From Chromera velia (taxonomy: Eukaryota): a stretch of DNA of 56,080 bases. Within the stretch, counting starts at the first letter, position 1; each line of letters starts with the position of its first letter. Positions 52,221-55,584 of the stretch are shown piece after piece. Below the pieces are notes generated by a model that was not told where the DNA came from, made no database searches, and worked only from the letters and a program-made list of their open reading frames with translations. The stretch is taken from NCBI GenBank assembly GCA_018398765.1, contig JAHBMJ010000118.1:1-56080 (forward strand), written 5' to 3'. A program made the translations under genes and the position numbers.

Positions 52221-55200
52221 AAGGGGGGGGGGTCCGTGCCTGCGTGTGAAACCTCTGCATGTTTGTGTCGATAAAGTGTGCATCAATCCGTTCGTTTACA
52301 CTTCTTTCTCATTCTATACCCGTCCATCCGTCCGCTCTTCTTCTTTGCTGACCGTCTTTTCAAGAAGTCGCCAATGCTGTCCCAGTGTTTATCCTCTCTT
52401 TGTCTAAACCCCATTTGATCCAGAGTGTATTGGTTTCTACCTCTCTTTTTGTGTGTAGCTACCTCAGTCTCCTGGCATCGCCTCTTTTGCATGTGAACGC
52501 GCTGTGTGAGGACTTGTTGTTTCCGTCCGTTTTCTTTCTTTCTTTCTTTCTCTCTTTCTTTCTGTCTATCTCTTTCCTTGTTCGTGCATGCGAATCTGTG
52601 TCCTCTCTCTCGAATGTTTGTGACAAAACAACAACCACTGCGGTGACAAAACAAAAACCGTGTGGCTGCTTGTCGTTGTTTCGATCGACCCGCAGGCTGA
52701 AGGGGAAAATTACACCCACAATTACAGGTGATTGAATGTGGCATCTCCATATGCTCCCCCCATCGGCCTACACCAACGACACAAAGACGTGGTCAGTCGA
52801 TCGTTTCTGCTGTCTGCGTAAGTTGATCGCCTACATTCGTCTATGATATGCTTATTCTGCCACCAATGTCTCTGCCTGTCTCAGTGATTGTTGGAGACTT
52901 CTTTTGAGACAGCTGCGAAGCAACTAGAAGGATTTCCACTTTCTGTAAACAATCTCCATTCACTGGAATGTGTTCCTCGATAGGTTTTGGCAATTTGACT
53001 TCATGAGCAATAACCTGAACGAGCGACCGCTTCATTTCTCTGGAGGCGTATCTGGAAGTGAACCTGCGCTTCATCCAACCTGCCTGCCTGCGTGTCCCCC
53101 CCCCTTCCTCAATGCATGCAGGTTTGGAGAACCTCTCGTTCACGTTCCCTTCTCTCCTTCCACGCGTAGAGGGGCAGAGGGGGCGGCAGAGAAGAAAGCA
53201 CGGGCAGCCACCGTGCGACGATCCGAGCTTGCCTGGTCTCTTTTGGTTGGATGGAAGGCCGAGGCACTCATCTCCGAGTCATGGAAAGAGGAGAAGAAGA
53301 GGCTAGAGGCAGAGTGGGAGAAAAGAAAGGCAGAAGGGAATTTCCACACGCGCTCTCTGCCTGATCCCATCAGCATGGCAGCATGGGTGGAGGCCGTCAG
53401 TGACCCCTCCGTGGAAATAATGGTATGTTTGGTTTGGTGGCCGGCCCGGAATCTGTATCGGTAGACCTTGAGGCTATCAATATTAAGTACAGAGCAGTAT
53501 AAATGATACGTTTTTGCCACGGATCGTCCTGGAATTCGTTCATCTTTGAGACGCTGTGTCGAGTATCTTCCTTTACGTTGGCATGCACAGAGTGCTGTCT
53601 GGCTGGAACGCCTAGGAGCAGAAGCAGAGGCGGTCAATTTGCAAACGTAAAGGGGGATGACTTGCCAATATATCGCCACTAGACAGAAGGGCTGAGAGTA
53701 AATGAAAGAGACAAGGACAGACACACAAGCTCTCCATATTGCCTTCCTGCGCGCAGACTTTTATTTTGATTGTACGGAATGCGAAGAAATCTTCTGCGGC
53801 AGCGCTTTCACGAGAGATCGGGAACAAGGATGGGTCTGAAGAGTCGAAGGAAGAGAAGAAAGAGCAAGACGAAAGAACGAAAAGAGGAAGTGCGGAGAGA
53901 CTGAAAGTGATCGGATCAATGCCTCTGGGGGTCCTTCAGCTTCTCTTCTCCTTCATCAAGGCACTAAAAAAACCGTGCAACATCTGCAACGTCCCCACCT
54001 CAGCTGTTCCCAGGTAGAAAGGAAGGAAGGACGCGGGTCTTCATATCTATGGCTTCGCTTTTATTTTTGTCTGGAGGCTGCTTGGCCTTCAATCCTGCAG
54101 CAAAGACGAGACAAAGTGATTGGATGGAATTTCTTGTCATCTTTTGAGCTCCTTTGTCTCTCACACTCTCGTCGCCTAGCCCATCTATTCTATTCTCATT
54201 TGTGCATCTCTTTGTACATTACGCGCATGCATTTTATTTTGTTCGAATCAATCTATATGCATGCAAACGCAAACGCCTGCAGGGTGTTCGGGGGTCCCTG
54301 TCGTCTGACCCACCTCCGTCTCTGCCCCGGGAAACCAGGAGATCCTCACGTGAAGCCATGTCTTTTTTGTAAGACCCCCACAAGGAATGTCTTGGCACTC
54401 ACGCGTGTGCGGTACCTGGCCAATTCTTTGCCAGTACCCTTCTGCGGCGCTTGTACCTGCAAGCAGTGCGGAAAGGTGCCGCGAGTCGAACGCGTCCTTC
54501 CCTCAGGGCCTCGAGTCCATAGAAGAGCTCGTGCGCTTCCATTTGCAATAATCTGCGGGTGTTCAGTGAATTGCCAGTGCGGGAAGGCAACGAAGACCCG
54601 TCGATTTAAAAGAGAGTTCAACGATTTTCCGGAGTTTTGGTGTGGAGGGTGTGGGTGTGATGACTGCACATACATCGGATCAAAGTGCACCTGTGTGGAT
54701 CCGGACGAACGTTGCTGTTCTTGCTTCGTTGCGGGGTCAGAGGTAGGTCAGAAATGTTCTTGCTTCGTTGCGGGGTCAGAGGTACGTCAGAAATGTTCTT
54801 GCTTTGTTGCGGGGTCAGAGGTACGTCAGAAATGTTCTTGCTTCGTTGCGGGGTCAGAGGTACGTCAGAAATGTTCTTGCTTCGTTGCGGGGTCAGAGGT
54901 ACGTCAGAAAAGCACACCCTCAAATTAATTGTGTGCTCGCGTGTTACACAGCTCGTAGACCAATGTCCGCTTGTGAACGTGTGTAGACAGTGATTGTTTC
55001 AAATACATAAGTTCCTTCGGCCCTTCTGGTAGATGTTCTTTTTTCTGTTTTTAGAGAGTGACTCGCACAAACACTCATCTGTTGGATGTGAAGTGGGAAG
55101 CGGGAAGCTCTTAAAGTTCATTCTTGGTCGTGCGCTTTTCTGTTTTTACGATGCTGCGCCAACTGTTAGTGTTGTTTTTTTCTGACCCGTCCCTCCGATG

Positions 55201-55584
55201 TTTCACCTAGAAGTGAAAGCTTCCTCCCGACGTCCAAATATCCACGTGTACGCACGCACGACTTGTATCCCCTAGCTCTGGACTTACTTGCTTGAATGAA
55301 CCTGCATGCAGGTCGCTTTGGCTGAGGGAGGAATGATGAAAGTCGAGGACCTCTCCCCTGGAGTTCTTGTTCTGACGGGACAACAGCCAGGGGGAAGAAA
55401 AATTGAGGGCAGCTTCGGGAATCAACAGGCTGTGAGAGCAGTGGCAAGGGTCTGGAAGTGCCCTGTGGAGGGGGGACAGACTCGAGTGATTTTACTGAGA
55501 GGAGGATGTGAACTGACTGAGGGGCATCCTGTGTGGGAAGAGGGGGAGATGGGCGGGAAAGAGCGGTGGGTAAAAGTGGAAGAG
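49907..55584 (+). CDS. Multi-exon GRDP-like + Cys-rich + Hint-domain protein; one in-frame TGA at 52733; continues beyond the window
   Basis: Starts MGQDVS. GRDP-like repeats YIQFLAL...PPLPLWALWHSHMLRP..F....VDH (exon 49907-50424) and YFHFL...ITPTITGD*MWHLHMLPPSAYTND (52696-52792). Cys-rich exon 54283-54742 ends CSCFVAGSE|GT. Exon 55312-55584 reads VALAEGGMMKVEDLSPGVLVLTG...CELTEGHPV. That all exons form one transcript is inferred. Confidence 0.7.
54716..54910 (+). repeat. 39-bp tandem repeat x5 spanning an exon/intron junction (CSCFVAGSE|gta)
   Basis: Five units of tgttcttgcttcgttgcggggtcagaggta(c/g)gtcagaaa. Confidence 0.95.

What the first reader, a model, noticed from the sequence alone, without database searches (positions are those of the whole stretch)
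54283..55584. Hidden Hint (Hedgehog/intein) autoprocessing domain fused to a GRDP-like, Cys-rich, possibly myristoylated protein
Seen: splicing GAG|GT (54742) to gcatgcag|GTC (55312) in phase 0 gives CFVAGSEVALAEGGMMKVEDLSPGVLVLTG...VRAVARVWKCPV...VILLRGGCELTEGHPVW...W. This exon is absent from the ORF track. Established: CF.xG(S/T).V..A.G....(I/V)EDL..G..V is Hint block A with the nucleophilic Cys, and TxxH is block B. The N-terminus MGQDVS fits the MGxxxS myristoylation pattern. I know of no described GRDP-like + zinc-binding-like Cys-rich + Hint architecture. Inference: a self-cleaving, possibly ligating, intracellular protein.
Basis: partly seen in the sequence, partly recalled or inferred. 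Interest (0 to 1): 0.85.

Follow-up and report, generated by a model that had tools for sequence, protein, structure and literature searches.

The report
Self-cutting Vint tail on GRDP proteins
This spliced gene of the alga Chromera velia joins two GRDP-like repeats and a cysteine-rich region to a Hedgehog/intein-type (Vint) domain that likely cuts itself off; the pairing recurs in Vitrella and Symbiodinium and was not found in the papers searched, but the copy in this assembly carries a premature stop codon and runs off the end of the window.

Summary
The splice is real: RNA contigs join 54742 to 55312 in 3 of 4 runs and show 7 of the 8 modelled introns. The domain is a Vint-type Hint with Cys685, Thr760 and His763; a relative's model matches the Tetrahymena Vint structure 8R2C (Z 17.9). 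The architecture (two GRDP-like repeats, Cys-rich region, Vint) is shared by a Chromera paralog, also held as an MMETSP transcript, and by a Vitrella protein; Symbiodinium and unnamed relatives have GRDP, ubiquitin-like and Vint domains instead. Likely mechanism: N-terminal self-cleavage without splicing (no His-Asn end in 13 of 13 relatives), possibly with transfer to a nucleophile chosen by a four-cysteine tail; untested. Myristoylation is not conserved. The scan's notes hold other Vint fusions but no GRDP-Vint one. New variant of a known kind; interest 0.5.

The parts
49907..50424 (+). Exon 1 (aa 1-173): MGQDVS start and GRDP-like repeat 1 (WHSHMLRP at 50327-50350)
   Evidence: own GRDP profile 35.8 bits at aa 112-166 (its seed proteins were found with this exon, so not independent); no Pfam hit at E<=1; joint to exon 2 not seen, present in public model P0001
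50784..50854 (+). Exon 2
   Evidence: joint to 51222 in 3 of 4 runs
51222..51265 (+). Exon 3
   Evidence: joint to 51790 in 3 of 4 runs
51790..52115 (+). Exon 4, start of GRDP-like repeat 2
   Evidence: joint to 52696 in 3 of 4 runs
52696..52791 (+). Exon 5 (96 nt), core of GRDP-like repeat 2; skipped in the public model
   Evidence: joint to 53122 in 4 of 4 runs; Pfam GRDP-like E 0.035, 15.2 bits, under the 22.7 cut-off; own profile 31.3 bits at aa 306-356; 22 of 33 residues identical to the paralog
52733..52735 (+). In-frame TGA at codon 333 in this assembly; RNA contigs read a Leu codon, as in the paralog. A Pro at codon 341 is likewise His in RNA, paralog and Vitrella
   Evidence: (52734 in 3 of 4 runs, the fourth without cover; 52758 in 4 of 4)
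53122..53422 (+). Exon 6, charged linker region
   Evidence: joint to 53757 in 2 of 4 runs; 47 of 101 identical to the paralog
53757..54013 (+). Exon 7, start of the Cys-rich region; skipped in the public model
   Evidence: joint to 54283 in 1 of 4 runs
54283..54742 (+). Exon 8: Cys-rich region and the first 7 residues of the Vint domain, with Cys685 (54722-54724) preceded by Cys-Ser; skipped in the public model
   Evidence: 84 of 154 identical to the paralog; of 23 Cys in aa 520-699, 22 shared with the paralog and 17 with both paralog and Vitrella
54716..54910 (+). Five tandem 39-bp copies spanning the exon 8/intron 8 border; each repeats the catalytic-Cys motif and a GT donor in frame
   Evidence: only the first donor is seen used
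55312..55584 (+). Exon 9: Vint blocks A (rest) and B, Thr760 (55516-55518) and His763 (55525-55527); ends at a GTCAG donor, the remaining exon(s) lie beyond the window

Best explanation
The gene encodes a protein with two GRDP-like repeats, a cysteine-rich region and a C-terminal Vint-type Hint domain that likely cleaves itself off at the Ser684-Cys685 bond, and the allele in this assembly is broken by a stop at codon 333. In intact alleles and relatives the Cys would attack the preceding peptide bond with help from the block B Thr and His (established Hint chemistry, inferred here), forming a thioester on the roughly 684-residue GRDP/Cys-rich part. With no His-Asn end there would be no splicing or C-terminal cleavage; the thioester would be resolved by water or by a nucleophile admitted by the conserved four-cysteine tail, releasing the GRDP part inside the cell. 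The Cys two residues before the cut and the tail cysteines may bind a metal or form a redox lock that times the cut (inferred). The window's allele is most likely a decayed copy that yields a truncated product unless exon 5 is skipped.
For: Splice and exon chain. Same domain order in P0003 (45% identity over 807 columns; Chromera paralog Cvel_23483, also held by the MMETSP transcript source) and Vitrella P0006. Vint identity: 10 of 12 further relatives pass the Pfam Vint cut-off; profile hit to 8R2C E 2.1e-4; Atlas top hits all Vint, 0.95; model of relative P0013 matches 8R2C at Z 17.9, rmsd 2.6, 149 aligned, next Hint entry Z 10.9. Catalytic residues: block A Cys in 12 of 13, TxxH in 13 of 13, no His-Asn in 13 of 13, four tail Cys in 13 of 13, Cys at -2 in 10 of 13. 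Hedgehog Hint uses only the first N-S shift (PMC7664689, passages). Broken allele: of 8 amino-acid-changing differences between RNA contigs and window, the RNA residue equals the paralog's at 4 and the window's at 0.
Against: No activity was tested. Pfam Vint scores of the three chromerid proteins are under the cut-off (11.8, 14.2, 18.7 of 27 bits). The structure match is for P0013, not for this protein; the single-sequence model of P0006 failed (mean pLDDT 37). Blocks F, G and the tail of this gene are outside the window and are inferred from the paralog. No contig spans the gene and intron 1 was not seen; four of the seven joints are flagged 'between: not known'; all runs are one study at depth 3-8. 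The share of amino-acid-changing differences (8 of 12) is no higher than in the neighbouring ORF (4 of 6), so it does not by itself show decay. That Vint domains cleave at their N-terminus is recalled from a 2024 paper on 8R2C that I could not read.
Confidence: 0.6

Rival explanations
1. Hedgehog-like ligation is the main outcome: the tail binds a specific small molecule or protein lysine and the Vint transfers the GRDP part (in dinoflagellates with its ubiquitin-like domain) onto it without ATP.
For: The tail is far better conserved than the cargo (about 20 invariant columns in 13 of 13) and overlays the 8R2C tail (model 268-436 on chain -1..163). Precedent: Tetrahymena BIL2 conjugates a ubiquitin-like domain to Ras without ATP (PMC8616854, passages). 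Ubiquitin-like domains precede the Vint in P0013-P0019.
Against: No ligand or acceptor is identified. The ubiquitin-like domains end about 20 residues before the Cys, without a di-glycine at the junction, and are absent from the window protein, P0003 and P0006. BIL2 uses a terminal Asn that this family lacks.
Confidence: 0.2
2. The Vint domain is held inactive or used as a binding module, and the precursor works uncut.
For: One relative (Polarella P0022) keeps the invariant tail but lacks the block A Cys. A Cys at -2 could lock the nucleophile.
Against: Cys, Thr and His are kept together in 12 of 13 relatives whose domains are otherwise 28-62% identical.
Confidence: 0.12
3. The window's allele is functional: the TGA is an assembly error, or exon 5 (96 nt, in frame) is skipped in this strain as in the public model.
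For: The public model P0001 skips exon 5 and stays open. No genomic reads were available to check the base.
Against: Two separate departures from the family consensus lie in exon 5 and two more elsewhere; the RNA runs differ from the window in introns and in the neighbouring genes too, as expected of another strain or haplotype; no exon-5-skipping joint is listed; skipping would delete the core of GRDP repeat 2.
Confidence: 0.25
4. Exon 1 (MGQDVS start, GRDP repeat 1) belongs to a separate transcript.
For: Intron 1 is the one joint not listed.
Against: The paralog and Vitrella proteins are colinear across this junction, phases fit, and the public model joins it.
Confidence: 0.04

Closest known systems
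Vint proteins (VWA-Vwaint-Vint, some with a U-box; Burglin 2008, PMC2362128; Pfam PF14623; Tetrahymena structure PDB 8R2C)
   Same: C-terminal Hint-like domain with motifs A and B; no obvious N-terminal signal sequence by eye; fold of a relative matches 8R2C over 149 of 169 residues.
   Different: No VWA or Vwaint hit in any of the Pfam scans; the cargo is GRDP repeats plus Cys-rich or ubiquitin-like modules; Pfam Vint matches end at profile position 114 of 166 or earlier, and the tail has its own invariant motif with four Cys.
Hedgehog C-terminal autoprocessing (Hog) domain (PDB 1AT0)
   Same: HINT fold (Z 10.7); C-terminal position; N-S shift residues without a splicing end.
   Different: Hedgehog proteins are secreted and add cholesterol; Burglin 2008 separates Vint from Hog; no sterol-recognition region was tested here.
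Tetrahymena BUBL locus, BIL2 (PDB 6Y75, 6TMM)
   Same: Hint fold next to ubiquitin-like domains in an alveolate (fold match Z 10.0); applies to the dinoflagellate-type relatives.
   Different: BIL2 lies between ubiquitin-like domains and has a terminal Asn; here the Hint is terminal, lacks His-Asn, and the window protein has no ubiquitin-like domain.
GRDP/DUF1399 proteins (Pfam PF07173; AtGRDP1/2, PMC4299439)
   Same: Two W-H-x-H-x-L-x-P repeats; P0003 and P0006 pass the Pfam cut-off. Plant GRDPs end in a Gly-rich region with interspersed Cys.
   Different: No Hint domain is reported for them in the passages read; no glycine-rich tail here; whether the Cys-rich region derives from that tail was not tested.

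Membership tests
HINT superfamily | Block A nucleophile (Cys) and block B TxxH | tested here: met
   Cys685, Thr760, His763 in the spliced model, aligned to relatives
HINT superfamily | HINT fold | tested here: met
   For relative P0013 only: pLDDT mostly 80-95 over the domain, Z 17.9 to 8R2C and 10-11 to inteins, BIL and Hedgehog; Atlas model of paralog P0003 TM 0.51-0.57 to Hint clusters
HINT superfamily | Autoproteolysis at the N-terminal junction | not testable with these tools
   needs a biochemical assay
Vint domain (PF14623) | Pfam gathering score | tested here: inconclusive
   Exon 9 11.8, P0003 14.2, P0006 18.7 bits against a cut-off of 27; 10 of 12 other relatives pass
Vint domain (PF14623) | Closest solved structure is the Vint domain, tail included | tested here: met
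   8R2C is the top match by profile and by VIA-align, and second by Foldseek E-value; tested on relatives
Canonical Vint proteins (Burglin 2008) | VWA and Vwaint domains upstream | tested here: not met
   no VWA or Vwaint Pfam hit in the six window exons scanned, P0001, P0003, P0006 or P0013-P0024; the upstream region is GRDP-like
Inteins / BIL domains | Block G His-Asn end followed by a C-extein | tested here: not met
   0 of 13 relatives have it; this gene's own block G lies beyond the window
Hedgehog Hog domain | Secreted N-terminal domain and sterol-recognition region | not tested
   no signal-peptide predictor was run; Pfam Hint (PF01079) was not hit
GRDP-like (PF07173) | Pfam gathering score | tested here: inconclusive
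   Window exons score under the cut-off (none for exon 1, 15.2 of 22.7 bits for exon 5); paralog 25.6 and Vitrella 42 pass; own profile finds two repeats at 35.8 and 31.3 bits, shuffles at most -0.2
N-myristoylated proteins | Gly2 with Ser6 at the true N-terminus, conserved in orthologs | tested here: inconclusive
   motif present and no upstream ATG in 49733-49906, but no Gly2 in P0003 or P0006; modification itself not testable

The most novel reading that the evidence does not exclude
Chromerids and dinoflagellates share an old family in which a distinct Vint subtype with a four-cysteine, possibly metal- or redox-gated tail acts as a one-shot, ATP-independent ligase: it cuts off GRDP repeats carrying ubiquitin-system modules (ubiquitin-like, UBA, Cys-rich) and fixes them covalently to an intracellular target; in Chromera, retention of intron 8 with its five copies of the catalytic motif would supply a Vint-less form.
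Probability: 0.15. Interest if true: 0.85.

Novelty: new variant of a known kind. Interest (0 to 1): 0.5.

Why it matters
GRDP/DUF1399 proteins affect growth and stress tolerance in plants but have no known biochemistry, and Vint domains have one solved structure and no known natural adduct. A family that has kept the two together in chromerids and dinoflagellates, while swapping the module between them, gives a concrete substrate for testing what Vint domains do in cells and hints at a link of GRDP repeats to the ubiquitin system. The intact paralog Cvel_23483 or the Vitrella protein, not this allele, is the one to test. Interest is held down because Vint is a known, widely shuffled domain, databases already label the relatives 'Hint' or 'Vint domain-containing', nothing functional is shown, and this copy is broken and incomplete.

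Tried and rejected
No whole genome is held for this window, so the exon(s) beyond 56080 could not be fetched; a closer look at RNA contig ends near 55584 was not obtained, which leaves the gene's own blocks F, G and tail unseen. No listed run is on record as RNA; I treat X1-X4 as RNA because their contigs skip GT..AG introns. The stretch 50406-50784 had no bridging cover in the pieces and depths shown, so intron 1 is untested. Exon 9 alone found no Hint structure by sequence. A single-sequence model of P0006 was unusable, so the GRDP and Cys-rich parts have no fold assignment; the Atlas gave no usable hit for the paralog's Cys-rich region (TM at most 0.30), which shows neither absence nor novelty; zinc binding is unsupported beyond the Cys pattern. 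An F-box-like look in exon 7 got no Pfam hit at E<=10 and is dropped. The Vitrella UBA is under the Pfam cut-off (15.2 of 22.4 bits) and is a lead only. A tree of 15 Vint domains was poorly resolved (2 of 12 inner branches well supported, long chromerid branches); it neither shows nor excludes one origin of the GRDP-Vint pairing. No relative was found in viral contigs (0 of 5 pattern matches confirmed); one was found in metagenome contigs (1 of 67, L001). TGA as Trp or selenocysteine was considered and dropped because the RNA contigs have a sense codon there and the paralog has Leu (Vitrella has Trp). RNA editing was dropped because differences are of ten kinds and also lie in introns and neighbouring genes; a DNA run of the same strain was not available to exclude it. 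No complex prediction was run.

Full report
Observation. The window is eukaryotic and intron-rich; a protein search with exon 9 returned one hit at 100% identity, the Chromera velia model Cvel_15138 (P0001, 511 aa). I modelled nine exons from 49907 to 55584 with consistent phases, 782 codons. Intron 1 is not listed, four joints are flagged 'between: not known', depth is 3-8, and no contig spans the gene. The public model skips exons 5, 7 and 8, so it lacks the Cys-rich region and the catalytic Cys, and it ends without a stop where exon 9 ends.

Exon 5 holds an in-frame TGA at codon 333 (52733-52735). RNA contigs read a Leu codon there in 3 of 4 runs (the fourth has no cover) and His for Pro at codon 341 in 4 of 4; both match the paralog. 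Of the 14 differences that one search lists in the gene (two rows of its table were not shown), 12 are coding, 4 silent and 8 not; the RNA residue equals the paralog's at 4 of the 8, the window's at 0. The neighbouring ORF has a similar share of changes (4 of 6), so the ratio says little; the direction suggests that the assembled allele has decayed while the RNA comes from another strain or haplotype. An assembly error is not excluded. Second, a 39-bp unit covering the catalytic Cys and the donor is repeated five times (54716-54910); all five donors would keep the frame, only the first is seen used. Binned depth inside intron 8 exceeds what the exons can supply in X1 and X2 (6.38 against 1.57 and 2.21 against 0.96 in 55031-55383) but not in X3 and X4, while intron 4 has none; this points to intron-retaining RNA, which would end soon after the repeats without the Vint, but may be unfinished splicing. 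Third, the domain is cut at the donor after 55584; the window ends in a TTTC array, so blocks F, G and the tail are unseen for this gene.

The family. A search of 1.84 billion representatives with exon 1 gave 9 hits at E<=0.001. Two carry the whole architecture: the Chromera paralog Cvel_23483 (P0003, 927 aa; held by UniRef as 'Hint domain-containing protein' and by the MMETSP transcript source) and Vitrella CEM35630 (P0006, 774 aa). The window model is 45% identical to P0003 over 807 columns. Of 23 Cys in residues 520-699, 22 are shared with P0003 and 17 with both. Searches with the Vint region found 12 more proteins and one metagenome locus. Among these 15 Vint-bearing relatives, 9 have GRDP-like repeats (P0003, P0006, P0013-P0019; P0015-17 and P0018-19 are near-copies), and the seven non-chromerid ones have a ubiquitin-like domain where the chromerids have the Cys-rich region (the ubiquitin-like profile was built from four of them, but the fold is confirmed). 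Named sources are Symbiodinium natans, Symbiodinium spp. and, for a kinase-Vint protein without GRDP, Polarella glacialis; three have an adenylate kinase in front. These searches are word-limited and length-limited (388-2000 residues), so the range is a lower bound.

The Hint domain. Exon 9 and the two chromerid relatives score under the Pfam Vint cut-off, but 10 of the 12 others pass. A profile of those 12 scores the spliced model 38.0 bits (exon 9 alone 37.5; shuffles at most 3.7). The family profile's best solved match is the Tetrahymena Vint 8R2C (E 2.1e-4); the Atlas gives Vint clusters for the paralog; an AlphaFold2 model of P0013 from 13 sequences matches 8R2C at Z 17.9, rmsd 2.6 over 149 residues, tail included, well above inteins, BIL domains and Hedgehog at Z 10-11. 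In 13 aligned relatives the block A Cys is in 12, TxxH in 13, a His-Asn end in none, a Cys at -2 in 10, and the tail has invariant LEGH-x-DT, G-x-YCG, FGWN and three further Cys. Pfam Vint matches stop at or before profile position 114 of 166, so this is a subtype with a diverged tail sequence on a Vint-like fold.

Mechanism. Shown: splice, domain order, catalytic residues, fold of a relative. From established chemistry: Hint domains start with an N-S acyl shift, and Hedgehog uses only this step to transfer its N-terminal part to cholesterol (PMC7664689, passages). Inferred: cleavage at Ser684-Cys685, release of the GRDP/Cys-rich part, no splicing, and control or adduct choice by the tail. Ligation has a precedent in Tetrahymena BIL2 (PMC8616854, passages), but no acceptor is known here. 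Myristoylation: the motif is there and no ATG lies upstream in 49733-49906, but neither P0003 nor P0006 has Gly2; I put it at about 0.3.

What is known. Burglin 2008 defined Vint proteins as VWA-Vwaint-Vint, unsecreted, four with a U-box (PMC2362128; passages and section 12 read). The chromerid genome paper mentions HINT domains once, among secreted proteins (PMC4501334, one passage). AtGRDP2 is described with DUF1399 and a Gly-rich end with interspersed Cys (PMC4299439, passages). The paper on 8R2C is recalled only (not held). Searches for Vint with protist or Tetrahymena, Chromera with Hint domain, GRDP or DUF1399 (30 of 185 listed), DUF1399 with hint (one wheat paper, listing only), and Vint domain alone found no description of a GRDP-Vint protein; most subscription journals are not held, and I read no supplements, where the alignments of Burglin 2008 or the domain lists of the chromerid paper could hold a member. 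The scan's notes have no GRDP-Vint finding but several other Vint fusions (unchecked), consistent with Vint being a freely shuffled domain.

Verdict. Observation confirmed, interpretation partly supported. A real and apparently undescribed architecture built from a known self-cleaving domain type, conserved in chromerids with a sister form in dinoflagellates; this copy is broken in the assembly and incomplete. New variant of a known kind, interest 0.5.

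Noticed in passing
window 48294-49175 (-): 293-codon intronless frame, head to head with the gene about 730 bases away, with two LAGLIDADG-like motifs; Pfam LAGLIDADG_3 E 0.015, under cut-off; RNA contigs cover 47990-49037. An intein-type endonuclease-like gene beside a Hint gene may be coincidence; synteny could not be checked.
   Followed up: partly
window 54716-54910 and 54743-55311: Five in-frame 39-bp copies of the catalytic-Cys/donor unit, and cover of intron 8 in runs X1 and X2 beyond what exons supply; whether the RNA strain has all five copies is unknown.
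   Followed up: partly
window 45500-47390: A neighbouring spliced gene (joints 45618-45982 and 46101-46672) whose RNA contigs differ from the window at 16 of 696 bases in one piece, showing that the runs are from another strain or haplotype.
   Followed up: no
P0022 (Polarella glacialis): Protein kinase, weak ubiquitin-like match and the same Vint subtype, but without the block A Cys: a natural dead variant that keeps the invariant tail.
   Followed up: partly
P0017, P0018, P0019 (Symbiodinium and an unnamed source): Adenylate-kinase-like domain fused in front of GRDP, ubiquitin-like and Vint domains.
   Followed up: no
L001 246-1562 (+): 438-codon frame with a ubiquitin-like domain and the same Vint subtype, no GRDP hit.
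   Followed up: partly
P0007: An unnamed GRDP-like protein without Vint that starts with Gly2, two Cys and Ser6, a possible lipid-anchor motif, and ends in a Gly/Cys-rich tail.
   Followed up: no
P0003, P0013, P0014, P0016, P0018, P0019: A precomputed Pfam family PF27765 is listed for these; its name and position were not shown and it did not appear in scans of the local library.
   Followed up: no
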